NCBI GenBank assembly: GCA_021613535.1
Contig: CP075497.1
Span: 434,001-498,000, forward strand
Direction of reading: 5' to 3'
Length of the DNA: 64,000 bases
Origin: Adineta vaga
Taxonomy: Eukaryota; Animalia; Rotifera
Below, piece by piece: positions 2,373 to 51,598 of this stretch; position 1 is the first letter of the stretch; each line of letters opens with the position of its first letter. The notes below the pieces were generated by a model. It saw only the letters and a list, made by a program, of their open reading frames with translations. It was not told the origin of the DNA and did not search any database. The position numbers and the translations under genes were made by a program.

Positions 2373-2480
2373 TATCTAACGAGAAAGAGAATTTCTGAGG
2401 GTGTGTGTGTGAGAGTGAATACACTGTAAAAACTGCGTAATACAGAACGCACAAAAATCCTTTATGATCAAGGTCAGGAA

Positions 2481-2612
2481 TAGGGGTGGACCATTTAATT
2501 TAACGCGAGTTAATTAACTTGCGTTAATTAACGGATTCCGTTAACCGTTATTATTAACGTTGACGAAAACCGTTTACGTTTATTTTAAATAAACGTAAAT
2601 GTCCCACCCTTA
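2481..2612. mobile_element. Small MITE-like element with nested palindromes
   Basis: Ends TAGGGGTGGACCATTTA and TAAATGTCCCACCCTTA are imperfect inverted repeats. Internal near-perfect palindromes TTAACGCGAGTTAATTAACTTGCGTTAA and TTTACGTTTATTTTAAATAAACGTAAA. No clear TSD. Confidence 0.55.
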
Positions 2613-2711
2613 CGACTGAGTCAGGAACCTTTTTGTGTACTCAAAAAGTGAGTACACTACTAAAATCGGTCAGTGTGTCCGGTCATCCGTTTATCCGTTA
2701 ATTTTCGAAAG

Positions 2712-2783
2712 GAGAGTGTGTGTGGGTGTGGGTGTCTGCTGAAAGAAGAGATATCCACCCATTCCAGACTCTCACCCACCCCT
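2712..2783. repeat. Telomere-like palindromic element (G-arm / spacer / C-arm)
   Basis: GAGAGTGTGTGTGGGTGTGGGTGT ... CCACCC...CTCACCCACCCCT. A lone G-arm CTGAGGGTGTGTGTGTG also lies at 2395. Confidence 0.65.
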
Positions 2784-2862
2784 TTGTTCCTATATCTTGT
2801 TCTATATATTTTCTATTCATATTTGAGATAAAGACATTAAAACAAATAAATTTGTGCGTAGT

Positions 2863-3404
2863 AACGGGATTTAATGGTATTACGCAGTGAGCTTCATCAA
2901 AACCTTTCGGTGTCGAACTTAAAAGAATTTCAAAAATTTGACACTTTTTGGAGATAGAAAATGTCGAAAAATGCGAAGAAATTCATTTTCTTCATGTCGA
3001 TGAGAAACATTAGACTTTTCAATGAAAATGGATGTTTTTCAGTATTTTTATAACAGGAGACTCTTCGAAATACATCTCGGAGATGCAGCGGGAAAACTGC
3101 GTTTAATGCCATCGATATGAAGAAAATGAATTTTTTCACATTTTTTTACATTTTCTGATTAGTTTTCCAATATTTCATCTCAGAAAAATGCTCTCAAAAT
3201 TTTTCCATCTACACAGTTTTGCAGAACTCGTTGAACTCTATCGAACTATGTAAAAAGATTTAGGAAAAAAAATGTTTCTTTCATGTTGCAATTACTTACA
3301 CCATATTTTCTATCACCAAAAAGTGTCAAATTTTCGAAGTTCCTTTAAGTTCGACACCGAAAGGTTTAGATAAAGTTCACTGCGTAGTACCAATAAATCC
3401 CGTT
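2863..3404. mobile_element. MITE with ~100-bp terminal inverted repeats
   Basis: AACGGGATTTAATGGTATTACGCAGTGAGC...CTTTCGGTGTCGAACTTAAA from 2863 is the reverse complement of about 3305-3404 with few mismatches. Non-coding interior. Confidence 0.85.
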
Positions 3405-4967
3405 TCCGACAGGCTTTCATCTGATGTAACATTCATTATATATTTACTTTGAAAAAATATCGTTACCCGCCTTGTACTATAGTGGAAGATATTAGAAGTA
3501 CCAACATATAAAGAATTTTTGAGTTAACACTTGGCATCTCGCTTCTCCTCTTTTTTCGTTTCTCTTTTCTTCGATTTTATTCTGAATTTTCTTGTTGACA
3601 TCACTACTTCGCATTTGTGACATACTTACGTTTATTGATATTTAAGTTTATGCAAAAAAAGGGAAAAAAATACGTCAAGAAAGTATTTTCTCAAAAGAAG
3701 AGAAAAAGAGAAATTGGCAAGCCAGGTTAACACCGATTTCAAACTTCCTCTAGAATCAGTTTTTAATGCGGAATCTGAAAATAACATTTTCTGAAAGTTT
3801 CATGAAAAAACCAAAGATAAATTTCACTCGAATTTTGCATTGTTTGCACCTTATATTAAAGAAAAAAATGGGTGGAAAAATGCAGGATGTTTCTCTGAAA
3901 ACGAGATTTACATTGACATAGAACAGAAACAGATATTGTAAGTTAGTTGTCAATATATAGTCGAATTATTCATCTAGGAAAAGTTAATCGTAGTTTCAAA
4001 ACCAGCGAACTCTTACAAACATTTCTTCTATCCAAAAGATATTTCTGACTGTCATCTATCAGTAAGTTTGTGTTCTCTATATACATGGTTACTCTCTTTC
4101 TCTCTCCGAAAAAAGAGAAACAATAACCTTTGACTACTGCGCTTGTATTCTTATATATTGCAGCAAAACATAATTTGTCCTTATATTAGTTTTGGAGCAG
4201 TTAAGGATATTGCTTTCTAAGTATGTACGTCACCACCTCTTTTGTAGATCAAAATGTAAAGATGAATGAATATAAAGTGTTTTGAGCCAGCTGGCGAATA
4301 GTATAACCGTAGCTTTCTGTTTAGTTTCTACTATAATTATATATTATTGCCATTTCTCTTCGAAGCTACCTTCTTTTTATTTCCAAGAAAAAAAAATACT
4401 GGTCTATATCATCGTATATTTAGAACACTAAAGAAAAGTTCTAAGTCACGCTGTGAATTGATCATCTATATTTACTTTTTTCCTCTTTTTTTCGAATCAT
4501 AAACGAGTATTCGATTCACACTCTCTATATGCAGTAAAACCTCTCTTACTGAACGCCTGCGAGAACCACAGAGTGAATTTTTGTTTGATTCACACCCCTC
4601 CTATATGATCATCTCGTCATTCTGAGAATGAATGCATTTCTTCGATCCCGTCTATCTGAACGATAGTAAAGAGCGCCATCTTGAAAAACTATTTCATTAC
4701 AGCTATGAAGTTGATTATCATAAAGGTGATCGGATCTATTCTTTTATTCAATTACAAACGAGCAGGAGAAAAAAGAAAGAGAGAATACACAAGTAGAGCG
4801 CCTGATACAAACTACATCACCTTTGTGAAAATTTTTCGTTCAACTCAAATATCTCGACTTTTTGACATGTCTTGAAGTTGAATTGTATGGGACCATCGGA
4901 AAAAACCTGTTTATGGTACTAACTTTGTAAGACACAGTTTTCATGTGGGGATAAAGAATGCCAAGAT

Positions 4968-6275: not shown

Positions 6276-6396
6276 GTATCAATATTCATCAAAATATATT
6301 GTAAAGGATATAAAGAAGAAATACATGAAAATTAACATAGATATATATTTATATGATGAAATGGCTTTTTTTCTCTTGTGAATAATTGTTAAATTG

Positions 6397-7110
6397 TCAT
6401 TCCATTGATCGATAACTTCTTTCAAATTTAAGTTCAACTCTTCCTTCCTCATTGTAATTTTTTGTTTTTATAAACCATTTTCCTTCAAATTGATATTGAT
6501 TACAATTCCAATCAACTTGAATTGTAACATTATGTCCAAGATTTTCTATTAAATTTCCAGTTCCTTTTCGATATTTCTTTATGAAAGCTATACGATTCGT
6601 TTTTATTGAATAAACTCCTTCAATAACAAATTCTCCAATATCATCACTTCCATTTCCAGTTATTTTCGATGTTTCTGGATCAAATAAAAGTGAAAATCGA
6701 TAAGGTCCATGAAATTTATCATATTGATAATAACGACTTAACCAAAAACCTGAATGGAATTGATCACACTTTTCTCTATTTGATCCTATGTTAACATATT
6801 CTTCATTTGATGGTGTTGGAAAACTATTTGACCAAAGATGATAAAGTGCCATTAGAAATACAATAAATATACCAAATGTTATTACATATTCTATAAATGT
6901 CGTTGGAATTTGATAACCACTACGCATGTAACCTGCATGTCTTCCACGATAGAAATGATCTAAAAAGTAAAGATATGATAAAAGATAGAAAAATCTTATT
7001 AACTTACTTCGTCCTGGACGACTACGACCTTTTGGACCAGTAGTACCTTGACAATAGATTACACTTATAAAAATTATAAGGATTAAAGATATACGAAAAA
7101 TAATATGCAT
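6397..7110 (-). CDS. Signal peptide + TM protein with a beta-rich C-terminal domain, function unknown
   Basis: 237-aa ORF with hydrophobic N-terminus and internal TM. Probably one short in-frame intron at about 7008-6961. A decayed paralogue lies at 33628-34143. Confidence 0.75.
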   Translation of the reverse strand: MHIIFRISLILIIFISVIYCQGTTGPKGRSRPGRSKLIRFFYLLSYLYFLDHFYRGRHAGYMRSGYQIPTTFIEYVITFGIFIVFLMALYHLWSNSFPTPSNEEYVNIGSNREKCDQFHSGFWLSRYYQYDKFHGPYRFSLLFDPETSKITGNGSDDIGEFVIEGVYSIKTNRIAFIKKYRKGTGNLIENLGHNVTIQVDWNCNQYQFEGKWFIKTKNYNEEGRVELKFERSYRSME

Positions 7111-7455
7111 TATGTATCTTTACTGTATTCGATCAATTATTTGTATTGAAGAAATATTATGAAAGAAATTTATGTGTTATTTTGCATCATATCATAATAA
7201 ATGAAAATAAGAATGTATGATAATCAAACGTTTGTAACGTGAATATTGATCGATACACCTTTGAAAAGCACGTGTAATATGATGAAGAAAAAACAGGAGA
7301 ATAGTTTAATAAGAAAAGAAAAAAAACAACCCTCTTATGAGTAATATCTTTTCAAATATTTTCGATTGCAATTTTGCAATAAATCAAGAACGGAAAGAAT
7401 TAGATATTTGCACAAAAGTTTATTATTGAAATATACAATTGACTAAATAACAGAT

Positions 7456-7514
7456 CTTGAGAGTGTGGGTGTCAGAGAGGTTGGTTGGTTCTTACTGTAT
7501 CCTCACTCACTCCC
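7456..7514. repeat. Telomere-like palindromic element
   Basis: CTTGAGAGTGTGGGTGT ... CCTCACTCACTCCC. Confidence 0.65.
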
Positions 7515-7704
7515 ATGTTAAGATAATTCAACTCGAAAGAAAAGTGACAGAATCATAGTTAGACCTTTGATAAACTAATAATTTTCTCCTCTATATGTCA
7601 TCAGTGTAATTAAGATATGGAAATCGAATTTGTTCTTTTCTTCCTTTTATTTACAACAATAACATTATTGTGTATATAAATATCGCAGTTGCTTTTTTTT
7701 AAAT

Positions 7705-7757
7705 AGGGTGTGGTTGTAGATGATTAGCTAGTGCTCACTCCACACCCACACCCTCAA
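7705..7757. repeat. Telomere-like palindromic element
   Basis: AGGGTGTGGTTGT ... CACACCCACACCCTCAA. Confidence 0.8.
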
Positions 7758-8036
7758 TATCCATTTAATATCGCACGCACCAGCGGATTGTTACTTTCCT
7801 TTTTTATAGTACCTCTATTTTGTCAAGATATACGCACATTGAAATTATCTCGATTGACCAATACTAAACACCAATATTCACCTTCAATCATCATTTCAGT
7901 ATCTAATCAAAGACATTGTCAAATCATCTGTTTATCTATGTCTAACTGTCGTACCTTGGTATTCTACAAGGGGAAAAAAGCGGATCCTGGGATCTGATGT
8001 GGGTAATGATTTCTTATTTTTCATCATTAAACCTAT

Positions 8037-14150: not shown

Positions 14151-15352
14151 AACTTCTTTTTTATTTCATCAATTTATTAAATTAAACAAGCATATCGTTT
14201 TCAAATAACGACATTTTGTATAATGATACATAGTTTTTACGAAAACATTAATGACAATAATAATCTCAGAAATACTTTATTTGAAAAGAAATCAATATAT
14301 TTCATTGGTTCAAGTAAATAGACTTCTAATCAAATGTTCTATGTTCTAATCTGACTCGTCGCACTGTTTAAATGATGTGTACATGACTCAAGAATCATAT
14401 GCAAACGAGTAAAGAATGCCTTGAGTCGTGAGATATCACGGTGAGATGCCGTGGCAGTTTCTTTCTAATTAATAAACATCAACCTGTACTCATCGTTCGT
14501 TATGTCGTATGTTTTGTATTTTTGGAAAACGTATTGAAGCTCACGAATGTCCAGTAAGTCAGTGTAAATGAAGTCCATGTGAAAACGAATCACCATTACT
14601 CAGTAGTTATAATTGTCGATTTGATTCTTGTCCATTCACTAAATCAGTAAATTCAAATATTGCAAAAAATAAACAAAAAACGAATTCTTTTTATTAGTAC
14701 ATAAAAATATGTTTCGTAAACGTAATTAAAAACGTTAATTTGATGACATGACACAGAGTCTAACTATTTTCACGGTTCATTTCCATTCGCAAATTTCACG
14801 AAATACTTTCATTGTTTTTTTCCAAAAACATTTTCACCAAGATAAATCATTCTACTTGTCTAAATACATATAACAAATGCGGAAACCTCGAATTGAAATC
14901 CGAGTGTAGGTAAGAATATCCATTTCAACATACACCGTCACTCTCAAGATGGCAAAATCGCTCAGTATCAACAAATATTTTGCTAGGAATATGCCAAATA
15001 ATAATCAATGAGAAACTTCCGAAATAACTTTTCTACCTATCCTTCCTATTTATTCATTTGCCAAACACTGAGGGGTAGTTCGCAAGAGCTCATAACAAAA
15101 CAAAACATGACATATCGATTGAAGCACTCGTTCGTTATTGCACAAAGATTGACGAATCAATACTGTGTAGCGCAAGTTTTATTGCTATTTGCTTTTTGGT
15201 TTTACTGACAGCATAGTTTTTAGACACAACTTCTTTTTTTAGATTGATTCCTTATCACTACCTGGCTCTATGACAGAAATATTAGAATAATTGAAACACA
15301 AACGAGACAATCCTCCATTAGTACATCAATTTATAATTCAACACATGAAACC

Positions 15353-15460
15353 GAGCGTGGATGTAGATTTTAAAGTAGAAATAGAAGATTTTTAGCGCGA
15401 TACACATCATCACTAACAATATCTGATGCTCCTTTACTTCTCTACACATTCACCCTCAAG
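15353..15460. repeat. Telomere-like palindromic element (degenerate left arm)
   Basis: GAGCGTGGATGTAG ... TACACATTCACCCTCAAG. Confidence 0.55.
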
Positions 15461-15858
15461 ATTTCAATGCATTTTGGTAGATCTCATACAGTAAAATATG
15501 ATATCGTATGTATAATTTTGACATCAGACAAAGAGATAATTTCGATGGTTCTCTGGGAAAGAATACAAATCTTTTAGTATAACATCAGGTGAAAACGTTA
15601 GGAAATGCACCAATTGGATGTACCGAAGGACATCGTGCAACATTAGAAACAATTGAAGATCGAAAATGAATCGAAATCTCTTTGGAAAACCGTTCAAATT
15701 ATTGATTACGTATTGAAACTATACCGTATGGAAAAAAAATGACTGACTATCGATATATTTCATCTTTGATTATATATCTTCTAAAACATAGAAAAGATTT
15801 ATGTTCGATTGATTTATTTTTATTCTGAAATGTATTTAATATTATACGAATTAAAAGT

Positions 15859-16525: not shown

Positions 16526-16984
16526 TGATTTAAATATTGATTGTTTGTTATTTAAATACGTAACACAAATCGTATTAACAGTAGATATTTTTACAAACGT
16601 TTTATAGTTTTATATACAAAATAAAATGAATCATAATGAGAAATGAAATCATGTTTTTTTTAATCTTATCAAAATGCAAACATGTAGTTCATTCGATTTT
16701 GTAGATTTAAAATGATTCACAAAATGTTAATATTTGATTTGTATCAGTTTTCAAAAGAAAAAACCAACCATATATTAAAAATCGATATGCGTATTATATT
16801 TTCTTCTGTTAAAGTTTCTGAAAGTGTGACTCGTCTCGTGTATTGATTAAAGAAATGCACATGTGTCCTTGCAATTGCGTTTATAATTTTTTATGTAAAT
16901 TATCGTTAGATGATATGATTAATCGCAACAAATTTTTCGATGGTATCATCAATTTAAATAAATATTCAATAAAACATAATGTAA

Positions 16985-17041
16985 TTGAGGGTGTGGGTGT
17001 GAAGGTTTCTCTGTTATATGCAGATCCACAATCATTCTCAA
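16985..17041. repeat. Telomere-like palindromic element
   Basis: TTGAGGGTGTGGGTGTGA ... CCACAATCATTCTCAA. Confidence 0.75.
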
Positions 17042-17139
17042 AATTTTTTTGTCATTTGAAATTTCGGTTTCCAATTAAATATAAATTTCAAGATTGATCT
17101 GTATGCAGAAATTATACCGAATGCTTGAGATAATTTCAG

Positions 17140-17390: not shown

Positions 17391-18048
17391 ATAGTTTTTC
17401 TAAGCACATGAGCGTTCAAATAAATTAATGTCTTTCATCGATTGATTCAATTATTACAAGAAAGATACCTTCTAAAAATAGATTCTTTTGTTTTATAATA
17501 ATTATATTTTTTGATGGATTCTGTTCAATTTTTTCTTTTATTATTAATTCTTGAGAAAATAGTGTATATGAATGGAATAAACAATAAATCGCTATACGTT
17601 TAAATCCTACATATAGTAGTCGGAAAAACAAAGAAAACGTGTTCTTTTATGAGGAATCAGCATGTATATCTGCAAAAATTTAAGAAAAAGAAATATATAA
17701 ATTTTCTCGATCACGTGTAAATGTCCTGCGCTTTCTACAATTTAAACGAGAATAAGACCAGATTATGATTTGATTCCGTAATAGAGATATATTTAATTAT
17801 GTCGTTGTTTTCTATGTTTTATACAAGTTTTAGAGGAATAATGAAACTTGCAACGTCGTTTTTGATAAAGCTGCTTTCGTTCACTCGATGTAACATTAGC
17901 TATATCGTGCTGTGATAGCAGCAGTGAATATGAATTGTAAATATCTTATTAATTTAACATTATTTTTTTGGTTCGAAAAATACAAACAAAAATACAGTCG
18001 TTTATCAATACTTGAGCGAGTGCTTGATCGAGTAGATCATAATTTAAA

Positions 18049-18101
18049 TGAAGATGTGGGTGGGTGAGTGAGGGTACAGAAAAGATACACACATCCTCAA
18101 G
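18049..18101. repeat. Telomere-like palindromic element
   Basis: TGAAGATGTGGGTGGGTGAGTGAGGGT ... ACACACATCCTCAAG. Confidence 0.7.
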
Positions 18102-18146
18102 AATTCGAAATCGAATTGTTCGAGAGTATAAGATAAAGACATCTGT

Positions 18147-18608: not shown

Positions 18609-18709
18609 CTCTCGATATAAGACTAATGTAAAAAAAGAACACTTTTACAACTCTTTTATCTTGTGCGTGATCAAAATAAAAGAAAAAGAATTAGTGTAAT
18701 GAGAATACT

Positions 18710-18784: not shown

Positions 18785-19353
18785 TGACTGCTCGAATAAG
18801 CTAACTTGATTTTCATAGATGATGATCTGTTCGTTTGGAAACTCTTCTTATTTCTCTTTTTTACATTTATAATTTGAATAGATGCTATTTGTGTTCCTAC
18901 AGAAATTTTTTTAAATAAATATCGTTGATTATACATGCTGTCCAAAAGAAACTGCACTTGTAGCAATGTATCAAAACAAATAGATTAATTCTTAATGATC
19001 ATAACTACGTTGTCAATTTTAATATCTCTTTAAATGCATGTGATATAGTCAAATGTTTCATATTTCATAAATTAACTATCTTTTGTATGTGAATTTTCCA
19101 TTTGAATATGTGTCAGTGACTTAGTATTACAAAAATATAACATCTTCAGGATGTGGAGAGTTGTGGATATGTTAAGTGTACATGATGAGCTAACGTTCAA
19201 CCCACAACCATTTCTATTTGTTCATCTAGTGATGGTGAAGCCTTAGTCGATGTTGATGTTCCTGAACTGTGTGACTGCGATGAAAGATCCACTACAGCAA
19301 GTTGAATAATTTTTTTTGATAAATGTTTACATAATCTTTTATCTTAATACATT

Positions 19354-19602
19354 TTGCTAGATATTAAAGAAATTTTGCATAATCCTATTTTATCATTGCC
19401 TTGGATTCAAGACAGCAAATGTTCGGGCACATTTCAGTTTTGGAAATCAACTAGAGCGTTTGTCATTGATGCAATTAATAAAAATGGAACAGTTCTTGAC
19501 ATTGGCTGTGCTAATGGATTCTTGTTGGCTTGTTTGACTGAATGGCTACAAGAAAAGTCCATAACTATTGTTCCTTATGGTATTGAATGTGATCCATCTT
19601 GA
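19354..19602 (+). pseudogene. Class I SAM-dependent methyltransferase, 3'-truncated
   Basis: Motif I VLDIGCANGFLL and the post-I strand VPYGIE. The frame stops inside the repeat arm at 19598, before the rest of the fold. Confidence 0.7.
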
Positions 19603-19657
19603 GGGTGTGGGTGTGGGTGAAGATGCCGTAAGAACAAATCACACTCACACCCTCGTG
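19598..19657. repeat. Telomere-like palindromic element
   Basis: CTTGAGGGTGTGGGTGTGGGTG ... CACACTCACACCCTCGTG. Confidence 0.9.
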
Positions 19658-20031
19658 AAAACTTAAGATGATGTCGATATACCAAAGCAAATTGTAATTA
19701 CAAGTATTCTACGCATGCTGTTAAATGACAGATTATTGATCGATTCTTCAGGTATTTATTCATGATATTTTTATCATACAGGTGACTAAATAGAAACGTG
19801 GGATGTTTATATAATACGTAGGCTTCTTTTGATTTTGTATTGTTTTGATTTATTTATAGAAAAAAATAAATCCTATGTGGGTGAAAAAGTTGAGAACGTA
19901 GTTTCTTGTGGAGAAAAAATATTGCACATGAAAATGACGTCAATAGTAATAATGTTGAATAGCAAAACGTTAATATAAATACCAGTTGTACATTTGAGAC
20001 ATTATGGACTCACAACGTCAAATTATACATA

Positions 20032-20456: not shown

Positions 20457-20787
20457 ACATTTATAAATTTTTATATAAATTATTCGAAATTGCTTCAAAT
20501 ACTAAAGTTTACTTCTGTTTTTTTTCATCTTTCTATAAATAAAATTTCCTTTAACAGAAAACCGAAAGTCATTTTTCTATGATTTTACAAATACAGTGCA
20601 ATTATTTGTTTTCTTTTCCATTTTGATGAATATACAATTTATGTATTTTTGAAGATAATATGTGTCCAGAGAAGAGGTTATGCGAAAATTATAAGCCTCT
20701 TTCTATCTTGATGAAGAAAATTTAATTTGCGTTTTTAAGACACTTATGTTAGTTCAGTATATATATTCGTTAGATAAGCAAATACAT

Positions 20788-20837
20788 AGGTGTGGGTGTG
20801 GCCTCAGAAAATACTAACAGTACACCCACACCCTCGA
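20788..20837. repeat. Telomere-like palindromic element
   Basis: AGGTGTGGGTGTGG ... TACACCCACACCCTCGA. Confidence 0.85.
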
Positions 20838-20915
20838 AAAATAAAAATATTTTGTTGAAGTCTAATTAACAGTAATCAAAGTAGATTAATAATGTCAATA
20901 ATAAAAATTTGAAAA

Positions 20916-22495: not shown

Positions 22496-23099
22496 TTGAT
22501 AAAAATGAAAGTCTGGATTTATACCTTTCTAGTACGAATTTTATTTCAATCTAATATAAATTTGTATTTGACAATGCTTTTTTTAGTCATCATTTGTTTT
22601 AAGAACTCGAACAGTCCACAAACAAATGTTTTTTTTTCTCTCAAAATATACAAATTCATTTTAATAATTGAAATTTTCTTTCTTTTTTTTCTCGTTAACA
22701 ATAACCTATATCTCAATCAGGTTTCCAACTAGCACTTTGTATTTCATTTCCATACTGAATATTCAATACAACAATACTTGTAATTGAAAGTTTTCTTTGA
22801 TAAATTAAATGAAGGGTTTGAAAAAAATCTTATTACTTATTATTTCGAAAAAAAAGGTAACAACTACTATTTTCAACAAATAAAAGTCGAATACTCAGGT
22901 ATACTTAACTAATTTAAATGTTTAATTAACATCAGATATGGATACAACAATAGAGTAAAGTCGTAACTAGTGATAAAAAAGACATTCTACGATTTTCTTT
23001 TATACAAAAAATTATTTTGAATTATATTCATATCGAATTGAAAGTTTATCCATATCAAGATATATATTTTGAGAAAAATACAAATATTTACAAGCTTGG

Positions 23100-23147
23100 T
23101 TGAGAGTGTGGATATCCATCTTATTCTTACTCACACTCATCCTCAAA
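23100..23147. repeat. Telomere-like palindromic element
   Basis: TTGAGAGTGTGGAT ... CTCACACTCATCCTCAAA. Confidence 0.7.
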
Positions 23148-23202
23148 ATTTTTATTCTTTTATAAAAATAAAACAAGTTCTCACTCTATCAAATCTTTTA
23201 TT

Positions 23203-24729: not shown

Positions 24730-24925
24730 TTGTTAAATAATTTAGAAAAGTAGAAAAAAGCACACACACATGTGTCGAAAGAGATAGAAAAAAATAAAAT
24801 GAGTCAATGTGAATAAAAGAATGAAAAATATTTCTTTTTATATATTCTTTTCGTTCTTGGTACTTTCTTGCGTTCTGTCCCAATAACGACAATGGTGAGT
24901 TTAGATGAATAATGTCAATACAACT

Positions 24926-25017
24926 ATCTTGAGAGTATGGATGGAGGGGTGTGGGTGTAGGTAATATATTAACACATGAGTCTCACCCACCCACATTTAC
25001 ACCCACACCCTCAAGAT
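24926..25017. repeat. Telomere-like palindromic element (longest well-formed copy)
   Basis: ATCTTGAGAGT...GGGTGTGGGTGTAGG ... CTCACCCACCCACATTTACACCCACACCCTCAAGAT. Confidence 0.9.
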
Positions 25018-33300: not shown

Positions 33301-33520
33301 TTATATTTCGTTTATTATTGATAAATTTAATATTTATTCGATTGAAATACATTTATAATGTCAATATTTTTTGGTATTAAACTTGTTTTGTAATCTTACT
33401 AATAAATATATGGATAAATTGCAAAATTATTGTAAGATACAATGCGATACAAACGTCGGAGTAGAAACTTTTCTGCCATTTTTTTCACATTATTCGATAG
33501 AGTTTTAGCCTTAGCAAAAA

Positions 33521-33619
33521 CTTGAGGATGTGAGGTTCGAGTAAAGTTTTATCCACATCGATCCGTCAACCTCTGACATAAACACATACACAAACTATTT
33601 CTTTTCTTGAGAGTGAGGA
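33521..33619. repeat. Degenerate telomere-like element(s)
   Basis: CTTGAGGATGTGAGG at 33521 and CTTGAGAGTGAGG at 33606. Right arm weak. Confidence 0.45.
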
Positions 33620-33627
33620 TTAGATTG

Positions 33628-34143
33628 TCACTCCATTGATCTATAATCTTTTTGAAGTTTAGGTTCAAATCTTCCTTGTCCATTGTAATTTTTTGTTTTT
33701 ATAAACCATTTTCCTTCAAATTGACATTCATTGGAATTCCAAACAAGTTGAATTGTTACATAAATAAATACCTTCAATAGTAAATTCACCAATATTATCA
33801 TAGTTATTTTGTTCAATTCTATTTTTAATATAATCTTTATTCGATGGTATTGAAATACTATTTGACCAAAGATGATCAAGTGCCATTAGAAATAAAATAA
33901 AAATAACAAATGGCATCACATAGCCCATAAATGTAGTTGGAAGTTGATAACCATTACTCATACGGCTTGCATGTCTTCCACGATAAAAATGATCTAATAA
34001 TAAAGAAAATATTATTAAAGATAGAATAATTTAGTTCGTCCTGTTCGAGTTCGACTACTACTTTTTGAATCAAGAGTACTTTGACAATAAATGCTACTAA
34101 TAAGAATCATTATGATCAAAGATCGATGAAAGATTATGTGCAT
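33628..34143 (-). pseudogene. Internally deleted, frameshifted paralogue of 6397-7110
   Basis: Shares GYQxPTTF, HLWSNS and FEGKWFIKTKNYN...YRSME. The central part is missing and the frame is broken. Confidence 0.85.
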
Positions 34144-34631
34144 TATGTATATGTTTTGAACAAATCAAAAATTTCTTTCGTCAAAATATAATACAAGGAA
34201 AGATTGTATTTTGTTTCGCTTGATATCATATCAAATAATAAACAAAAAATAAGCACGTGTTCATCAAACATTTCTTCAATACATATACCTTTTTGTTTTT
34301 TGAATATAATATGTATATAATGATGAAAGAAAGAAAAATAACTAACGTAATAAAAAAATCGAATATTTCTCTGGATCAAAATATAACTTGTAGATGTTTC
34401 TCACATGTGACAGTTTTTATTTTCCTATACATTGAACTTTTCACCGGTTTCTTGAGAATTGTTCACTTCAGAAAGAATATTCGCGATCAAAATAACATCG
34501 AATAGAATCCTACGAAGGCATTCTGTATATAATAACAAGTAATATTCATTCTTACAATTCACTAAATCCTCAACTGTGGAAGGTAGAAATATATTTTACC
34601 TACACAATTTTAAAAAGACTATCAATACTAC

Positions 34632-34693: not shown

Positions 34694-35175
34694 ATTTTCA
34701 ACTAATAATTTATTCGTTTGATCGATTGCTATTTGACAAAGATCGAGAATATTCATTTCGTTGATCGTATTTTTTAATATAATCAGTTAGATAAAATTTC
34801 AATTGTTCTATGTTGAAGAAAATTGTGTGAATGAAATATCATGCGAACGTCCATTACTATTAAAACTTTCATGTTGTTGTAATTGTCATTCAATGATCAC
34901 ATACTGTATTCTTTCCATATTTCGATCATTGAATAAATATCTATACATTTCATATTACGATAACGAGTAGAGATTCTTCTATTGGTGGATATATTTAAAC
35001 GTATGATGTGATAAAGACTAAGATGGCAGAGGATGCGAGAATCAAAAGAATAATTATATTCTCAATGAACATTCTTTTAACTTAGTGTTCATTTCTCATT
35101 ATGAAATAAAATGTTTATTTTCTTGAATTATTCATCAATCTTTATGTAGTTCCACATGGATATTTTCCTTTACAT

Positions 35176-35250
35176 CTTGAGGGTGTGGGTGTGTGAGTAT
35201 CACCTCTTCTTTCACATTCACATCCATCCACCCACACCCTCCCTCGTAAG
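35176..35250. repeat. Telomere-like palindromic element
   Basis: CTTGAGGGTGTGGGTGTGTGAG ... CACATCCATCCACCCACACCCTCCCTCG. Confidence 0.9.
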
Positions 35251-35608
35251 TTTGAGCAAAGATCTTGCTGTTGATTATCAACGTTTCTTTGATTCGTGTA
35301 TTCCCAGCTGCTCGATATTTCACAATAATAATTATGATTTAAAACAAAGCGAATAATATTTGAAGATGAAGTATGAACGGAACTATGGAATTAAAAATTT
35401 CAACTTTCAATGCGATTTTAAGATTATTTTTATTTGAGAAGTTTGAATTTCAACTCTTAAAATATTTGAATATAATGTTAAATAAATACGAACAGAAGCA
35501 CAATTATAATTTCAATAAAATAGATTGTTTTTCATATTATAAAACAAACTAGATTAAAATCATTGATAAATAATACGAATAATTTAGTATAAGATCAGTT
35601 GAACAGCA

Positions 35609-41600: not shown

Positions 41601-41718
41601 TAAGGACAATTGTTGAATCTTTTATTTCATCATCATAATGATTTTCTTCTGGTATAAAAGCATTATAGTTAATTATATATCCGTAAAACCAACGGAATAC
41701 CCGCTTAAAGTTGATCAT
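35609..41718 (-). pseudogene. Very large multi-exon membrane protein: three TM/C-x-C modules followed by FG-GAP (VCBS) repeats; carries nonsense codons
   Basis: Modules with C-x-C, PxFHxxCSS and CxPxxCxY. C-terminal GDFNxDxxxD repeats. In-frame stops TGA at 38630-38632 (depends on my splice model) and TAA at 36365-36367, with the frame continuing past both. Confidence 0.75.
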
Positions 41719-42935: not shown

Positions 42936-43296
42936 AGTCTATTTTGAAATTATAGCGACAGCTCCTATCAAAATATTTTTCCCAATCTAGAAAAATGAAT
43001 ATAAAGAATGATATTTGGATGTTTTTTTCTGATGATAGTTCCTATGAATGTATCGCACACTCACCGTCCATTGACAATATAAAAATAATATCTATAGTTG
43101 AACCATCAGTATTGCGAATATACAATTTGTTGTTTAGATATTATTCTACCATCCATACAGAGTACAAAAACTACCATTAGATTACAACAATAAATAAGAA
43201 TAATACTGATGAATATTACGAAACAACCAGTAGTGTCAAACTTGAAAGTTGAATTCAATTATTCATATCTGATACCCCTATTACACTTCCCACACT

Positions 43297-43360
43297 CTAG
43301 AGAGTGTAGGTTTGAGGTTCTCTTATCTGTTAATATCCACATTCAAATCTACACTCTTAA
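43297..43360. repeat. Telomere-like palindromic element with co-varying arms
   Basis: AGAGTGTAGGTTTGA (43301-43315) pairs 14/15 with TCAAATCTACACTCT (43343-43357). Confidence 0.7.
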
Positions 43361-43842
43361 TATATCGGTGTAGAGATCGGACGAACAGGTGTAAAATTAC
43401 TTCCGATATCTTATGAAACAGTAGCCAGTAAATAGAAACACCACATATGGATCCATTATTATACGAAACTATGTTAGCTTTTACTACGATCTGGTAGCGT
43501 GATGTATTCTTTTTTCTCTTTCTTTCGATGATTTGAGTGCAATGTTGTTCTGCTCTATCATTGTATGCCGCAATAACGCATGATTCTCTTTAACTGCGAT
43601 GTGCTTACCAGTTACCTTTTTTTGTTCTTCTACTGGTGATTCTCAGTCAAAGAGCAATACTAATTTCTCTTGTTGTTTTTCTATGTAGATAAGATGGCAG
43701 ATGCAATAGATATACACGCCAACGCCTATTTTTTGTGATAACAGAATATTTATATATCGTCCTTTCATCCACAACAAAAACATTATTGCAATCCTTTTCT
43801 AAGAGAATCACTTTAAATTTCACTCGCGTAGCACAAATAACA

Positions 43843-44174: not shown

Positions 44175-44275
44175 AATGTCAAAAACTTAACTATAGAAAA
44201 TCCGATAATGTACAAGTATCGAGGATTAGTTCACTAGAAAAGAAAGTCACCTAGTCTTTATTGTACCACCGCATT

Positions 44276-44326
44276 AGGGTGTGGGTGTGAGCATAGATAA
44301 AGCTACAATACCTCCACTCTTCACTC
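44276..44326. repeat. Telomere-like palindromic element (good left arm)
   Basis: AGGGTGTGGGTGTGAG ... CCTCCACTCTTCACTC. Confidence 0.7.
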
Positions 44327-44815
44327 ATATTTACAATAAACAAAAGAAATCAGTCGAATATGTTTAGTGAACTAACTCCCCATTATCAAGATAAAATCTG
44401 TTTGATTACGCTCAAAGCATATTTTACTAGTATCCGATTGAAATAGAAACGAAAATTATAGTCGTATAATATGAATGAGATTAGAACTTAATTAACATTC
44501 TTTATTTGAAACAAATCAATGTTTACGATCACAAACATACTGTGTCTGACTATTTTGAAGGTTAAAAATACAAAATCTAGTACGCAAACCAATATGACCA
44601 TTAGCAAAATAATCAAAGTAACCATTATTCATACGATCAATCGCCAGATAAATACCAGTACACAAAGAATCAGTATTAATACAACCAGTAGCATAATTAA
44701 TAAAATCATCACGGCGAGACTGAAGATGAGCAATATCACCTCCATAGTTAACAGCAAGATCAGCAGCAGCATGATAATCTGCATCAAGAGCAGCATTGTT
44801 ATAATCTGATCGTAA

Positions 44816-45544: not shown

Positions 45545-46032
45545 TATTTGTAGTGTGTGTCTTATTCAAGAATATCTGAGTGAGAATGGAAGAGTATATG
45601 GGATACATAAAAAATGGACATCTTTATAGTAACTATATTTTTGTTCGCCGAAAAATATTCTGTCGAAAGAATTTTTTCTCCTCACCGTCACTTTTACGAC
45701 GGCTTTCGAGACGAAAAACTGTCTTCAATGAAACCTTTTTCAGCGAAGAGGATATATATCTTTTATTATTGATTGTAAAAGAATAACAAATAAAGCCATG
45801 ACTCGTCAAAATTGATAAGAAATACTCCTTTATATAGCCCATTAAGATTATATTCACTTTGGGAAGTTTTAATTTTAATTTTATGATTGATAGCAGATAA
45901 TATTCTTGAATCATTGCATGAAAATCGCATCTAAATCTGATTTATATTACGCAACGATATTCATCAATTTTCATTTTGTTTATAGGATAGCTTCAGATAT
46001 CTATAAATACAGGACAAAGGACTTTTCTCGCT

Positions 46033-46079
46033 CGAGTATGAGTACATCTTATTCATGCACACCCACACCCACCCTCAAG
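46033..46079. repeat. Telomere-like palindromic element (good right arm)
   Basis: GAGTATGAGT ... CACACCCACACCCACCCTCAAG. Confidence 0.75.
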
Positions 46080-47393
46080 AATTGTTTTTATTTAATCTAG
46101 AATATTATTAAAATTAATCTTCAAAAGAATAGAATTATTAATGCAATTACGAAACGTTTTGTACATATACTTTAAAACAAAATACTATAAGAATAATATT
46201 ACGACTTTTCACTGTGTATATGATTTGATATAGACACGAACGACTCTTCGAATCAATTGAAAAGAACAATTCAAGATTCGATTCATTTCTATTAATGAAT
46301 ACAAACACTTCTAATGTTGAATTTGAAGAATAACAACATAATTAATAAAGAACACAAAGTATTTTCATTTAAACAATGTTATTATCCTTTTATCATCACG
46401 AATATTTTCATCGAGAATTGAAAAGAAAGAATAATATTAGAAATTCTAAATAATACATAAAACACCTTAATTGAAAAATGGGTTTGTCGAAATGGAAATA
46501 ATTAACATATACGGGAATTGATCGAAACAATTCTTTATGAAGATTTAAATCATTTTGAACTTAATTGAAGTACAACACTTCATTCAATATATCACATCAT
46601 GAAATTCGATTAGTTTCATATAAAATGTCATAGAATCCTCAATTGAGAGATTGACATCTTCATGACTGATTAATATATCTTTTAGTTCGAAAACATATTA
46701 TCGTTAATTATGCTTTAATTACATTTTTAGAGTTCAGAAATTCAAATTCTTTTTCTTTTATTCAAAAAAGAATCTCTGAAGACGAGACAATTTCTTTTGT
46801 TCTTGTTAAACAGATTCAATGATTTGTTGATAAAAATGATCAATTGTCAAATTGAAAAACTAAATTCAAATTTTATTTTTAATTTCTTTTTTTCTTCTTG
46901 AAAACAAGTTTTCATTTCAAAATCGATTGTCGAGTTATTTTATAAATATTTAAAACTTTATCTTAAAAAATTGATAATTTTACAAATCAATTTACAAATT
47001 ATCTTTATTTTCCTATTAAAATAATTTTTTAATCGTATTTCAAAGATTTCAATTATTTTTCTTTTTCAAAATCTTTTCATTGATTTTCATTTGTTCATTG
47101 AGAAATTTTCAAGATTTGATTTGAAAACAAAAAATCTTTGATTTAACAAACATTTTCTTCAAATCAAAACATTTCTTCTGCATAGTTTCATTTCAATTTA
47201 ACAAAAATCGTTTTTTATGACCGAAAAAATTCTTTGAAAAAATAATTTCATCGAAACAAATCAACTTTCGATCTATTTTGCATCGAGTTTTTGAAAAAAA
47301 CAAAAATATTTTCTCACTTTTATTACGAAAAAAAAAATTTTCTTTTCCTTTTTCAAAGTCAAACAATTTCGTTTGAAATACAAAGTTCATTTC

Positions 47394-47637
47394 AATAAAT
47401 TTTATCAAATCGAAGGATTCGATGATTTTCACAATCTGAAACAAAGATTTTCTCCAAAATCAAATGATAAACCGGCAGGACGATTCAATTGATTTGATTC
47501 TCTTCGTTGACCATTTCCAACAACAACAATCTCGCCTTCTTCATCACCTTCACACCATCGCATTATTCGATGACTTCTATAATCTACCACATAGATTCGA
47601 TTCCATTCATCAACAAACAATCCTTGAGGAGAATTCA
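47394..47637 (-). pseudogene. 3' remnant of an NHL gene, paralogue of 53934-55487
   Basis: NSPQGLFVDEWNRIYV is shared with the 53934 gene. Downstream non-coding DNA at about 46617-47400 matches about 53331-53935. Confidence 0.85.
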
Positions 47638-47697
47638 TGGGTGTGTGTGGGTACTCTTTAATTTGGGCCTACATCCACCCACCCACACCCACACCCT
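47638..47697. repeat. Telomere-like palindromic element at a junction of two gene remnants
   Basis: TGGGTGTGTGTGGGT ... CCACCCACCCACACCCACACCCT. Confidence 0.85.
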
Positions 47698-48413
47698 TTT
47701 CTACGTTTTTGGTAGTAGTGCAACGTTAGGAAAAACTTCGCAGCATCAGTGATCATAGTTAATCCATTCAATGGTACACAACGATATCGAGCAATGACGA
47801 CAGAAAGTGATGGTGAAATATTTGCTTTACGTGTTGATAGTAGTACAGGAAATTTATATTCAGTGCAATTGAACCATGAAATGAAAAGTCCTACAAGTAT
47901 CGTTCAGACAGATCCAAGTAATTTTATAGCTGAACAATGGGTAAATATAACCAAAGCTAGTGGCATGCAATCAGATTCAATGGAATTCTTTTTCAATTCA
48001 ACAGCTCATGAATATTTTGTGACAGTGTCCTACGATTCTGATTATCTTGTCGGTATTGATGTATAGTACAACGAAAAATAATAAATGAAACTAGAAATTC
48101 GAATTTACCAGCATATTTATGTTATGCCAATAAAACAGATGCTTTTTATGGTATTCAAGAAGTTCAAGAAAAACGTGCTTGTCGTTTAATACGTTTAAAT
48201 CCTAATACTGGCACCCTGGATATTCTGTCTCCTGACTTTAATGATTTTCTCGCATCGACTGGAACTTGTTATGGAGGTTATTATTTTACAATGATTGTTA
48301 AGAGTCTACATAAACGAAATATTCTCACATTTGATTTAATCAACAAAGGACGAATAATAGCAAATAATACAGCAGATGCATATCTCGATTCAGTTGCATT
48401 TGTTCCAACTTAA
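47698..48413 (+). pseudogene. 5'-truncated, frameshifted beta-rich (propeller-like) protein gene
   Basis: Coding-like sequence starts right after the repeat, passes through ORF 47749-48066, and continues in another frame to ...YLDSVAFVPT* at about 48413. Confidence 0.55.
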
Positions 48414-48843: not shown

Positions 48844-50270
48844 TCAGTTACGATCACGTTCGTGACTGTAATCGTGTCTGTTCGGGCGCTCCTGCTGATT
48901 GATCGGGTTGTGTGTGTTGTTGACTGTACCATTTGATATGGTTTGGTCGCTCATTGAATGTTGATCCAAGGATTGTTCTTCAATATTGAAAAGGATACCT
49001 TTCATATCGGGCCATAGACAAGCTTTGTTGAGGTCATCCCAAATAGTACCACCCGGGCACGATTCCAGCCACATATTTACACCGTCGCACATAGCGAAAC
49101 CTTTCTCGCTGAAAGTCAATGGTCCAGTTCCACTTACACCTTCGCATGGGTTGGCATGAACTAGAACAACATGAGAATTGAATTATCTTGCTGTTTCCAA
49201 CTTTAGTTCGATTAATTTTACCTTCTTGGCAGTTAAGACCATACGAGGTACTTTGATTGCAGATGCAAACATATTTCAGAGCAGCATCTAATCGGAACGA
49301 CTGACAGCGTGAGTCGGATGTTTCACCACATGGTTTTAGGGTTTGACAGACATGGACATCCAGTTCACAAACCTTCCCATCGAAACCAAATGGGCACTGA
49401 CACTGATATGAGGTTTTATCAGTTGGAATGCATCGACCATCGTTGAGACATGGGTGCGAGGTGCACGGATTTTCCACGGGATCCAATTCTAGAATAATCA
49501 GAAAAAACTTTCTTTAAGCTGAAGCGAAAAAAAACAAGAGTATACTGCGTTCACATCGGCGTGAGTAATCATCGTAGTGAAGACCGTAGGGGCACGATTG
49601 TTCAAAACCACGACCATCATCGATGCAAACAACGAATTTACGACCCATCTCCAATGGGATTACAGTTTCAGGACTTTGACCTTGACAGAGAATATCTAAA
49701 ATACGAGAAAAAACATTATTTATACTCCAACAAACAACCACAAGCTTACCAGCGGGATCCGAGGTGACTTGCGTATCCGTATGAAGATCCGTAGGTTTCA
49801 TACCTTGGACAATGCCTTGAAGTGTATTTGGTTGGTGTTGTTGGACCGCTGAGCACTGGTGAGGTGTTGGCATCGCTGATGGATTGGAGTTCATCACTAG
49901 GCTCTTTAATTGGATTCGAAATCGAATCGGTATGACCAGACTTGATATCTTCAGGCTTGTATTCGACTTTGCATGAAACGGGAAAGTTTTTTGCATTGAA
50001 TATAACAGTCAAACCAATGGTCCGAGCAGCTGTATCTTGGAGTTTTGTATCACGCAGTTCAGCGTAGACCTTTGCATTCAAATCAATCGTATTCGCTCCT
50101 GAGTGTGTCACTTTGCCAGTGATCACATTTTCATTCTTAGCAGAGCGCACAACAGCACCTAACAAAAATATAACTGCAGTTTTTATCCAGGTGCTTGTCA
50201 AATACTCACTTTCAATAACACAGAAGAAGACGGAGGCGATAAACGCTAGCAGAAATCGACGACGAATCAT
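48844..50270 (-). CDS. Signal peptide + YbaY/YscW-like domain + chitin-binding (CBM14-like) + EGF + CBM14-like; probable frameshift near 49800
   Basis: ITGKVT...AKVYAELRDTKLQDTAARTIG...FPV...EY resembles YbaY. FVVC...QSCPYGLHYD...RC and ESCPGGTIWDDLNKAC resemble CBM14. CLNDGRC...CQCPFGFDGKVC is EGF-type. Short introns present. Confidence 0.65.
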
Positions 50271-51177
50271 GGAGAATGGACAGTCGTGTACTATGACTTT
50301 TGACACACGGTTCTCTCTATCAGGGACGTTCTATATTACTGTTTTGCTGGTACAAATACGCGGTGGTATTTATACTACGCAATATCTCTTCTTCTATCAC
50401 GTGACTAGCTGTGTGACTCCTCGGCACGATCATCTATACAGAAGAGCATGATTGTTTTTTGAATTAGAAAGGAGAGATGGATGGGATATGTAAGACGAGA
50501 ATCCCTCTTTTCTTTTAAGATTATCAATAATTGATTTTTTTTAATCTTTAACACGATCACTAAAACAACAACAACAAAACAACAAGAGAAATAGAGACGT
50601 AGAACGTTGCTAATATTCGATGATAGGATTCTGTCCATGTTAATAGAAAGTGAATCAAAACAGACCAGCAACTAATGCTGTGTTTGGATGCGTACCTATG
50701 TCAAGAAAAATCATAAACCATCGGTAATTAATCGTGACTTAAACCCGATTTATGCGATTAATCGTCAGTAGTGTAGAACACAACTCGACGATTTGATTCA
50801 AATGATATCTCTTTAGTTCAAATATTCGAGTCTTCAGCGCGCGAGCCCGTTGAGATAGGCTTCTATACTCGGTTGGTAGTCCCGCTACATCAATGCTCCC
50901 GCGTGCTGATCTCATATTAATAGCTTATTCACTTTACTGCTGATTTTGAAATTTAAAAGTCGAGGACTCAAACATTCGAACATTTGAATATTAGAACTAT
51001 CTTGAGGGTGAGTTTATATAAAGATATAGATTCCCAACTACCATGACGCATTTTGAGCTGGCAAAAGATCTCATCGGATGGCCTTGAAATCATCATGAAT
51101 CTAGAAAAACTGAATCAGATGAAGTTGCTTAAGAGAGTGACTAACTCTATGGATAGTATTGTGGAACTCACGTAAAT

Positions 51178-51226
51178 TTGAGGGTGTGCGTGTGTCAGTA
51201 TTACATCTATCTAACACCCACACCCT
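51178..51226. repeat. Telomere-like palindromic element
   Basis: TTGAGGGTGTGCGTGTGT ... ACACCCACACCCT. Another left arm CTTGAGGGTGAG lies at 51001. Confidence 0.85.
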
Positions 51227-51393
51227 TTGGAGAAAATCTTTCGATTTTAAAATATGTTTTATTACCAGTTACATTTGGTAATATGATTCGTGAAGGAGTT
51301 TTTGTTAGAGGATTATATTTAGCAAAGCTATATCTAATACAAGTACTAATGTTGATATTGAAATACCAACAACAAATGTATATCAAAGTGTAA
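51226..51393 (+). pseudogene. Possible C-terminal remnant of a formate/nitrite transporter (FNT) gene
   Basis: VLLPVTFGNMIREGVFVRGLY resembles the FNT last-helix motif PVTLGNIxGGxxFxG. It starts at the repeat arm. Confidence 0.45.
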
Positions 51394-51558
51394 AACAACA
51401 TGATGACACGATTTCATGTTAGTTTAGATTTGAATTAATTTGAAAACAAAACTAATATTTTGTGCTTCATTTATAGTATTTATAGTTTATAAAAATAAAG
51501 AATAAAATTTATCATGAGAATTCTTTCGAAATTAACATACGAAAATTGATTGACATAT

Positions 51559-51598
51559 CTTGAGGGTGTGGGTTAAGAGCATAGCCACACCCACACCC
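51559..51598. repeat. Telomere-like palindromic element (shortest copy)
   Basis: CTTGAGGGTGTGGGT TAAGAGCATAGC CACACCCACACCC. Confidence 0.9.

What the first reader, a model, noticed from the sequence alone, without database searches (positions are those of the whole stretch)
2395..51598. Array of gene-sized segments punctuated by ~20 telomere-like palindromes (candidate cassette system)
Seen: an element of about 40-110 bp with consensus CTTGAGGGTGTGGGTGTG-[unique spacer]-CACACCCACACCCTCAAG. Copies are at about 2395, 2712, 7456, 7705, 15353, 16985, 18049, 19144, 19598, 20788, 23100, 24926, 33521, 34632, 35176, 43297, 44276, 46033, 47638, 51001, 51178 and 51559, some degenerate or one-armed. 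The arms are conserved but the spacers are unrelated, which is unlike a MITE family. I found no copy inside an intact ORF or inside the three large transposons. Many intervals hold exactly one gene in either orientation: TMEM272-like (plus a short remnant), aerolysin-like, the 88-aa Cys protein, each of two NHL genes, the 33628 pseudogene, the Cys peptide and the ART. Knowledge (from memory, verify): TGTGGG and TGAGGG are reported bdelloid telomeric repeats. G-arm followed by C-arm is the geometry of a telomere-to-telomere fusion, so each gene segment looks like a mini-chromosome capped at both ends. Inference, three alternatives: (a) integron attC-like recombination sites for a eukaryotic cassette array; (b) scars of telomerase healing followed by end-joining of fragments; (c) CAC-starting TIRs of gene-carrying Pack-type elements inserted side by side. 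No recombinase specific to the motif is visible in this window.
Basis: partly seen in the sequence, partly recalled or inferred. Interest (0 to 1): 0.93.

Follow-up and report, generated by a model that had tools for sequence, protein, structure and literature searches.

The report
Back-to-back telomere-repeat seams between rotifer genes
About two dozen short pairs of telomere repeats facing each other lie between the genes of this bdelloid rotifer region; they are likely scars where DNA ends were capped by copying an RNA template and then joined, so they would mark the seams of a stretch patched together from fragments.

Summary
Each is a G-strand tract of the bdelloid telomere repeat, a short loop, then the C-strand tract. 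The order is always G then C, and the number is far above chance.

They are not cassette sites or TIRs. Two duplicated segments end exactly at an arm, one of them inside an NHL coding sequence. Arms decay without compensating changes. Hairpin potential is lost in 11 of 20.

The arms look copied from a template:
- Tracts chosen without regard to their flanks almost always start in one phase (28 of 32 preceded by A).
- They carry a nested series of one 7-8 nt leader (ATCTTGAG).
- Younger copies in metagenome contigs share a polar pyrimidine loop.

Best reading (0.55): both DNA ends were extended from a telomerase-type RNA and then joined. This resembles vertebrate TERC-ITS, but it is two-sided and very dense.

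The main rival is a one-pass copy of a small hairpin RNA.

The same kind of module was already reported by this scan in other bdelloid windows. I found no description in the papers I could search.

No genome, haplotype or read data were available, so break-point tests beyond this window remain open.

The parts
2394..2420 (.). module 1, G-arm only (leader TCT-GAG with one base missing)
2713..2790 (.). module 2, G-arm 2713-2736, loop, decayed C-arm
7454..7530 (.). module 3, full leader on the left, decayed C-arm
7699..7760 (.). module 4, weak G-arm, strong C-arm with 7 of 8 leader
15350..15462 (.). module 6, very weak G-arm, C-arm with full leader
16982..17046 (.). module 7, G-arm with TTGAG leader, decayed C-arm
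18045..18103 (.). module 8, TGAGGG-rich arms
19142..19235 (.). module 9, weakest copy (13 of 20 to the arm model)
19596..19659 (.). module 10, perfect left arm with full leader; right arm with CGAG-type leader
20785..20840 (.). module 11, both cores intact, left no leader, right TTCGAG
23097..23149 (.). module 12, decayed
24926..25017 (.). module 13, full leader on both sides, long arms
33519..33597 (.). module 14, decayed; its C-arm abuts the start of a duplicated pseudogene segment
34630..34696 (.). module 15, TCACCC-type C-arm with TTCGAG leader, G-arm nearly gone
35174..35252 (.). module 16, perfect left arm with full leader, long decayed C-arm
43295..43385 (.). module 17, decayed
44270..44340 (.). 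module 18, intact G-arm without leader, decayed C-arm
46033..46081 (.). module 19, C-arm with 7 of 8 leader, G-arm nearly gone
47638..47701 (.). module 20, leaderless arms; its G-arm begins where a copied NHL gene piece is cut off
50999..51020 (.). module 21, full leader plus about one repeat, no partner arm
51175..51232 (.). module 22
51557..51605 (.). module 23, full leader on the left, none on the right, 12-nt loop
46610..47637 (-). copied segment: 3' flank plus the last 82 of 317 codons of an NHL gene, frameshifted, cut at 47637
53324..54179 (-). parent-type copy of that segment (NHL gene 53934-54887 continues past the break point)
33598..34273 (-). copied, degraded segment of the gene at 6397-7119; homology starts at the C-arm of module 14
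6367..7233 (-). parent-type copy of that segment

Best explanation
Each module is most likely the scar of two DNA ends whose 3' strands were each extended by a reverse transcriptase copying one telomerase-type RNA template, and which were then joined head to head.

Shown:
- The tracts are the bdelloid telomere repeat.
- The order is always G-strand then C-strand.
- At least two modules sit exactly where a copied DNA segment is cut off.
- Tracts start in a fixed phase behind a nested series of one leader.
- The arms decay neutrally.

Inferred:
- Synthesis would start 0 to 8 nt downstream of the repeat template, which gives the leader ATCTTGAG or a shorter inner part of it.
- It would then run through a variable number of repeats.
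- In many events it would read a few bases past the upstream template boundary, which gives the pyrimidine loop seen in young copies. That read-through would leave a C-type tail able to pair with the other end's G overhang.
- Fill-in and ligation would close the joint.
- Telomerase is the likeliest enzyme; an Athena-type reverse transcriptase is the alternative.

The segments between modules would then be DNA fragments, some holding a gene and some only a piece of one, stitched into a subtelomere-like region.
For: - TGTGGG is the published bdelloid telomere repeat (passages of PMC7943196 and PMC8494291). Terminon tails use ACACCC or TCACCC (passage of PMC6431247).
- Orientation is G then C 8 times and C then G 0 times, with a strand-composition switch in the middle of the modules.
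- Junction evidence: 46610-47637 copies 53324-54179 at 71-86% identity. It keeps only codons 236-317 of the NHL protein. It stops at 47637, where the G tract begins. DNA beyond the module is unrelated.
- Second junction: the copy 33598-34273 of 6367-7233 begins within about 5 nt of the C-arm of module 14.
- Templated start: 32 outermost tracts were chosen by repeat core only, 12 from the window and 20 from leaderless metagenome hits. 28 are preceded by A (P 8e-10). Leader match lengths are 0:4, 1:11, 2:2, 3:3, 4:5, 6:1 and 7:6, against 0.2 arms expected with 4 or more.
- Polar loop: 6 of 19 young loops share TCTCTT (max-statistic null mean 3.25, P 0.002).
- Neutral decay: arm changes are rarely mirrored, and 11 of 20 modules fold no better than shuffles.
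- Precedent (sections 8 and 11 of PMC8537989): vertebrate TERC-ITS carry template-adjacent TERC pieces, both upstream and downstream of the repeats, and are head to head in 3 of 41.
- Telomere repeats were found at deletion break points in A. vaga lines (passage of PMC13564844).
Against: - Only 2 of the 4 ends of the two duplicated segments coincide with an arm. The other two (46610 and 34273) fade 350 bp or more from any module. For the other 21 modules I cannot say whether the flanks were ever contiguous.
- A near-constant centre, with both arms meeting the loop in a fixed phase, is not what plain joining of two independently capped ends predicts. My read-through explanation is an added assumption.
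- No template RNA was found: no telomerase RNA of bdelloids turned up in my search, and Rfam gives nothing in the window.
- The loop motif is only marginal in this window.
- Some arms are TGAGGG-type, which also fits Terminon-type tails.
- No haplotype, population or read data could be examined.
Confidence: 0.55

Rival explanations
1. One-pass copy of a small hairpin RNA. A short non-autonomous retroelement (G-arm, pyrimidine loop, C-arm) would be reverse transcribed at a broken end by telomerase or an Athena-type enzyme, and would bridge the two ends as a filler.
For: - The centre is near-constant, with a fixed repeat phase on both sides of the loop in young copies.
- Nested loss of the outer bases on both sides resembles internal priming plus 5' truncation.
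- Endonuclease-deficient Penelope-like elements are reported to prime at breaks (passage of PMC3846280).
Against: - Arm length varies from about 1 to more than 9 repeats and differs between the two arms of one module.
- Some young copies have no loop at all (L054, L010).
- One-armed copies exist.
- Leader lengths on the two sides look like the same nested distribution, which two primings explain more simply.
Confidence: 0.18
2. A DNA foldback or MITE-type transposon whose terminal inverted repeats happen to be telomere-like.
For: The structure is an inverted repeat with conserved outer bases and sits in intergenic DNA. A shared loop motif in young copies suggests common descent.
Against: - No target-site duplication is visible around the best copies (reading).
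- The outer ends are the variable part: a nested leader series, with many arms lacking it.
- Arm lengths vary.
- A module sits exactly at the cut end of a gene fragment joined to unrelated DNA.
- The transposases in the window (piggyBac-like; DDE_3 remnant) lie in the module-free part.
Confidence: 0.06
3. A maintained functional site: an attC-like recombination site of a gene-cassette array, or a hairpin terminator, insulator or small-RNA gene.
For: The modules are palindromes with a variable centre between genes, and 6 of 22 intervals hold a single gene.
Against: - No tyrosine recombinase or integrase was found among the 51 of 78 ORFs scanned.
- Genes lie in both orientations.
- 11 of 22 intervals hold no ORF of 90 aa or more, and 5 hold several.
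- There is no compensatory change between arms.
- 11 of 20 modules have lost hairpin potential.
- There is no Rfam match at gathering score.
- The 12.4 kb at the right end has several intergenic spacers and no module.
Confidence: 0.05

Closest known systems
TERC-ITS and short interstitial telomeric sequences inserted at double-strand breaks in vertebrates (PMC8537989: abstract and sections 8 and 11 read; PMC2246262: search listing and abstract start only)
   Same: Telomere repeats at internal sites, flanked by a piece copied from the RNA next to the template, either before the repeats (Xenopus locus) or after them (4 loci). They are inserted in one step during break repair. Head-to-head repeats occur in 3 of 41 loci.
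   Different: Here head to head is the rule. The density is about one per 2 kb, against 41 loci in 30 genomes. The copied flank is only up to 8 nt, against 25-98 nt. At least two modules join non-contiguous DNA. The template RNA is unknown.
Neotelomere formation and chromosome healing, including repeats seen at deletion break points in Adineta vaga lines (PMC13564844, passages)
   Same: The same repeat is added to non-telomeric broken ends in a bdelloid.
   Different: Those are single caps at terminal deletions. Here two caps face each other inside a chromosome, so the capped ends were joined again.
Athena/Terminon attachment to chromosome ends (PMC6431247 and PMC3846280, passages; the primary paper PMC5850863 is not held)
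   Same: A reverse transcriptase primes on a 3' DNA end through C-rich repeats of an RNA. 'Short stretches of telomeric repeats' are a known feature of bdelloid subtelomeres (PMC2861651, passage).
   Different: Terminon chains would give tracts all pointing one way, with retroelement sequence behind them. Here tracts face each other with 10-40 nt between them, there is no hammerhead, and no reverse transcriptase was found among the ORFs scanned.
Fusion-type head-to-head interstitial telomeres such as human 2q13 (recalled, not from a call)
   Same: G-strand repeats followed by C-strand repeats.
   Different: That is a single large event between two full telomeres. Here there are many tiny tracts of 1-9 repeats, with a leader and often a shared loop.
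Integron attC sites (recalled knowledge)
   Same: Imperfect palindromes with conserved outer parts and a variable centre, lying between genes.
   Different: There is no integrase, no uniform gene orientation, no maintained pairing, and the arms are the host telomere repeat.

Membership tests
Telomerase-RNA-templated insertion at breaks (ITS / TERC-ITS type) | Tract consists of the species' own telomere repeat | tested here: met
   Arms are TGTGGG/TGAGGG units. The repeat identity comes from PMC7943196 and PMC8494291.
Telomerase-RNA-templated insertion at breaks (ITS / TERC-ITS type) | Repeats flanked by sequence copied from the template RNA next to the template | tested here: inconclusive
   A fixed-phase start and a nested 1-8 nt leader and a shared loop look copied. 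However, no bdelloid telomerase RNA is available to compare with.
Telomerase-RNA-templated insertion at breaks (ITS / TERC-ITS type) | Orthologous empty site shows one-step insertion at a break | not testable with these tools
   No genome is held. No homologous locus was among the fetched contigs.
Junction of two capped ends (head-to-head scar) | G-strand tract always precedes the C-strand tract | tested here: met
   8 G-then-C pairs and 0 C-then-G pairs.
Junction of two capped ends (head-to-head scar) | Flanks on the two sides are not contiguous in the source DNA | tested here: inconclusive
   Met for modules 20 and 14. Unknown for the other 21. Two other segment ends are not at a module.
TIR/foldback DNA transposon (MITE) | Fixed termini with target-site duplication | tested here: not met
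   The outer ends vary. No duplication is seen beside the best copies (by eye).
TIR/foldback DNA transposon (MITE) | Copies related over their whole length, including the interior | tested here: inconclusive
   Loops are unrelated in the window. A motif is shared by 6 of 19 young metagenome copies.
Integron-like cassette array | Site-specific (tyrosine) recombinase nearby | tested here: not met
   No such Pfam hit among the 51 of 78 ORFs of 90 aa or more that were scanned. The other 27 ORFs and shorter ones were not scanned.
Integron-like cassette array | Maintained secondary structure of the site | tested here: not met
   11 of 20 modules fold no better than shuffles. Arm changes are not mirrored.
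Terminon/Athena unit junction | Hammerhead ribozyme and retroelement body next to the C-rich tail; tracts all in one direction | tested here: not met
   No Rfam family reaches gathering score in the window. There is no hammerhead among the 150 listed weak hits in 19 loci (59 lower rows not seen). The tracts face each other.

The most novel reading that the evidence does not exclude
Bdelloid subtelomeric gene neighbourhoods are assembled from loose DNA fragments, native and foreign. Each fragment is capped at both 3' ends by an RNA-templated telomere-type addition and then ligated cap to cap. The modules would therefore be a readable, datable record of every capture and rejoining event. Their leader and loop would spell out about 35 nt around the template of the still unknown bdelloid telomerase RNA.
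Probability: 0.3. Interest if true: 0.88.

Novelty: new variant of a known kind. Interest (0 to 1): 0.7.

Why it matters
Bdelloid rotifers survive shattered chromosomes and carry many foreign genes, and how fragments are put back or taken in is an open question. If these modules are seams between capped ends, three things follow:
- Any assembly could be scanned for them to map past break-and-join events and the limits of inserted fragments, and their decay would date them.
- The leader and loop would give a concrete sequence with which to look for the telomerase RNA.
- A rare vertebrate curiosity (TERC-ITS) would turn out to be a routine repair outcome in another animal.

The modules are also long palindromes of telomere sequence, which could themselves be fragile or protein-binding sites.

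Tried and rejected
- **Whole genome:** none is held for this window.
- **Sequencing runs:** the first call was one base over the length limit. No RNA, haplotype or population evidence was therefore available.
- **Metagenome scan:** Only about 18 of 119 loci looked like bdelloid DNA.
- **Viral and prokaryote-genome scans:** a 16-mer of leader plus repeat gave only GC-rich chance hits and no rotifer DNA.
- **Rfam:** nothing reached gathering score in the window. The permissive search of 19 loci gave only sub-threshold matches of the hairpins to many miRNA models, which I treat as noise, plus one tRNA.
- **Papers not held:** the Terminon paper and the 2007 Athena paper.
- **Apparent arm at 33606:** rejected, because it is homologous to the paralogue.
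- **Tract-like hits at 11749, 29519 and 32154:** rejected as a C run, a coding chance match and a GT microsatellite.
- **Possible third break-point coincidence at module 12:** the 3' flank of NHL gene 2 did not hold up on alignment.
- **Loop motif inside the window:** only marginal.
- **Snap-back self-copying:** rejected, because the two arms of one module differ in leader and length.
- **Literature:** three searches for a description of head-to-head modules in bdelloids found none. The library lacks most subscription papers, including the 2008 report on bdelloid telomeric regions, which I only recall as mentioning interspersed telomeric repeats.

Full report
**What is there**

The window is AT-rich DNA (GC about 0.26-0.39) from a bdelloid rotifer. 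Its beta-lactamase-like protein lies on a 13.9 Mb contig. The nearest named relatives are Rotaria sp. and Didymodactylos at 68-69% identity, followed by Acidobacteria at about 62-65%, which is the pattern of a horizontally acquired gene. I did not determine the genus.

The motif is real:
- A leaderless 13-mer hits 19 times against 0.01 expected.
- The 18-mer arm with up to 5 mismatches gives 42 hits against 1.1 expected.
- I count 23 modules between 2394 and 51605. One further copy lies at 14893-14950.
- The arm-like string at 33606 is not an arm, because it aligns with the paralogue at 6375.

**Anatomy**

Every module reads G-strand tract, loop, C-strand tract.
- With a leaderless 12-mer core there are 8 adjacent G-then-C pairs and no C-then-G pair.
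- Left halves hold G 273 and C 82. Right halves hold C 277 and G 69.
- The units are TGTGGG, the published bdelloid telomere repeat, and TGAGGG, whose complement TCACCC is reported in Terminon tails.
- Tract length varies from about one repeat (50999) to six or more (24926, 35174), and differs between the two arms of one module.
- The modules are clustered. None lies in the last 12.4 kb, where 5.8 would be expected (P 0.003), although that part has several genes and spacers.

**They mark cut ends of DNA segments**

A self-comparison of the window finds two duplicated segments.

First segment:
- 46610-47637 copies 53324-54179 at 71-86% identity.
- It holds the 3' flank and only codons 236-317 of the 317-codon last exon of the NHL gene at 53934-54887, with a frameshift.
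- Homology stops at 47637, inside the coding sequence.
- The next bases are the G tract of module 20, and the DNA beyond the module is unrelated.

Second segment:
- 33598-34273 is a degraded copy of 6367-7233 (41% protein identity with a 40-residue gap).
- It begins within about 5 nt of the decayed C-arm of module 14.

The other two ends of these segments, 46610 and 34273, fade 350 bp or more from any module. So 2 of 4 ends coincide with an arm. By my rough estimate, a random point has about a 1% chance of lying within 5 nt of one of the 46 arm edges. A third candidate, beside module 12, did not hold up on alignment.

**They look copied from a template**

I took tracts by their repeat core only: 12 from the window and 20 from metagenome contigs found with a leaderless head-to-head pattern. 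I asked what precedes the outermost GGGTGTGG.
- 28 of 32 are preceded by A (P 8e-10), so tracts start in one repeat phase.
- The match to ATCTTGA, read outward, has length 0 in 4 arms, 1 in 11, 2 in 2, 3 in 3, 4 in 5, 6 in 1 and 7 in 6.
- Only 0.2 arms would be expected with 4 or more matching bases.
- This is a nested series with a sharp maximum. It fits synthesis that enters one template at different points, and it does not fit a fixed transposon end.
- About five arms carry a CGAG variant.

Within the window that is nearly so: 6 of 23 lie within 2 mismatches of the loop motif against 2.8 expected (P about 0.05). Among the young metagenome copies, however, 6 of 19 loops share TCTCTT (max-statistic null mean 3.25, P 0.002). 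When aligned, the centre reads as a G tract ending GGGTGT, a pyrimidine loop close to CTTCTCTTTAC, and a C tract starting CTCAC. The loop is polar and occurs in either orientation. Some young copies have no loop at all (L054, L010).

**They are not maintained**
- Changes in one arm are seldom mirrored in the other.
- As single-stranded DNA, 9 of 20 modules fold with z of -2 or lower, and 11 of 20 fold no better than shuffles.
- The module at the younger duplicate (86% identity) is well kept. The one at the older duplicate (74-83%) is badly decayed. With only two cases this is anecdote.
- No Rfam family matches at gathering score.
- By ORFs of 90 aa or more, the 22 intervals hold one gene in 6 cases, several in 5, and none in 11. 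There is no cassette regularity.
- No integrase or reverse transcriptase was found among the 51 of 78 ORFs scanned.
- A piggyBac-like transposase and a DDE_3 remnant lie in the module-free part.

**Mechanism**

The shown facts point to reverse-transcriptase-type extension of 3' DNA ends, followed by joining of two such ends.

My inferred model has these steps:
- An end pairs with an RNA 0-8 nt downstream of its C-repeat template.
- The leader and then repeats are copied, with a variable number of rounds.
- Often the enzyme runs about 10 nt past the upstream boundary and into a G-rich stretch. That leaves a C-type tail able to pair with the G overhang of the second end.
- Fill-in and ligation finish the joint.

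The model accounts for the fixed start, the leader series on both sides, variable arm lengths, a constant polar centre, loop-less copies (plain joining) and one-armed copies. It rests on an unseen RNA.

Vertebrate TERC-ITS give precedent for both kinds of template-adjacent copying, and for a second enzyme acting on the other end, though this is rare there (3 of 41 loci). Telomere repeats at deletion break points were reported in A. vaga lines.

The main rival is a one-pass copy of a small hairpin RNA. It explains the constant centre more simply, but explains the variable and unequal arms less well.

**Relation to earlier work**

Published work describes 'short stretches of telomeric repeats' in bdelloid subtelomeres and counts the hexamer around genes. 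My three searches found no description of head-to-head modules with a leader, but the library lacks key subscription papers.

This scan has reported the same kind of module before, in other bdelloid windows (Adineta steineri and Rotaria spp.).
- Two of those notes mention a copied leader or copied-looking spacers, which my tests here support.
- One note found no shared leader in its own locus.

**Verdict**

The cassette reading is not supported, and the healing-and-joining reading is supported. I class it as a new variant of a known kind of repair scar, with an unexplained constant centre. Decisive tests need the genome, haplotypes and reads, which I could not reach.

Noticed in passing
window 51670-52962 (+): Single-exon beta-lactamase/serine hydrolase gene. 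After other bdelloids (68-69%), its best relatives are Acidobacteria and other bacteria at about 62-65%, so it is a likely horizontally acquired gene. It lies just right of the last module.
   Followed up: partly
window 56316-57941 (-): Long ORF with a full piggyBac-type transposase domain (DDE_Tnp_1_7, E 5e-80), in the module-free right part of the window.
   Followed up: no
window 61145-61222 and 62692-62769: 78-nt inverted repeats (88%) around a weak DDE_3 match: a decayed Tc1/mariner-like element.
   Followed up: no
window 2863-2962 and 3305-3404: 100-nt inverted repeat (91%) with 342 nt between the arms, not telomere-like; nature unknown.
   Followed up: no
window 8197-11503 (-) and 37114-41802 (-): Two runs of long ORFs without clear Pfam families (one weak hAT dimerisation hint). 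They are not similar to each other by blastn.
   Followed up: partly
window 20916-21743, 23203-24732, 53934-55631 (-): Three NHL-repeat genes plus the truncated piece at 47395-47637. This is a locally expanding family; 150-nt internal repeats are visible at DNA level.
   Followed up: partly
window arms at 19659, 20840, 34696, 35252, 14893; locus L065: A second leader variant with CGAG instead of TTGAG recurs in about five arms. It could reflect a second template variant.
   Followed up: partly
loci L010, L054 (2598-2644), L057, L041: Metagenome contigs with long head-to-head telomere arrays (8 or more repeats on each side), some without any loop. These are larger relatives of the window's modules.
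   Followed up: partly
window 44816-45941 (-): ADP-ribosyltransferase-like gene (ART / ADPrib_exo_Tox domains) that sits alone between modules 18 and 19.
   Followed up: no
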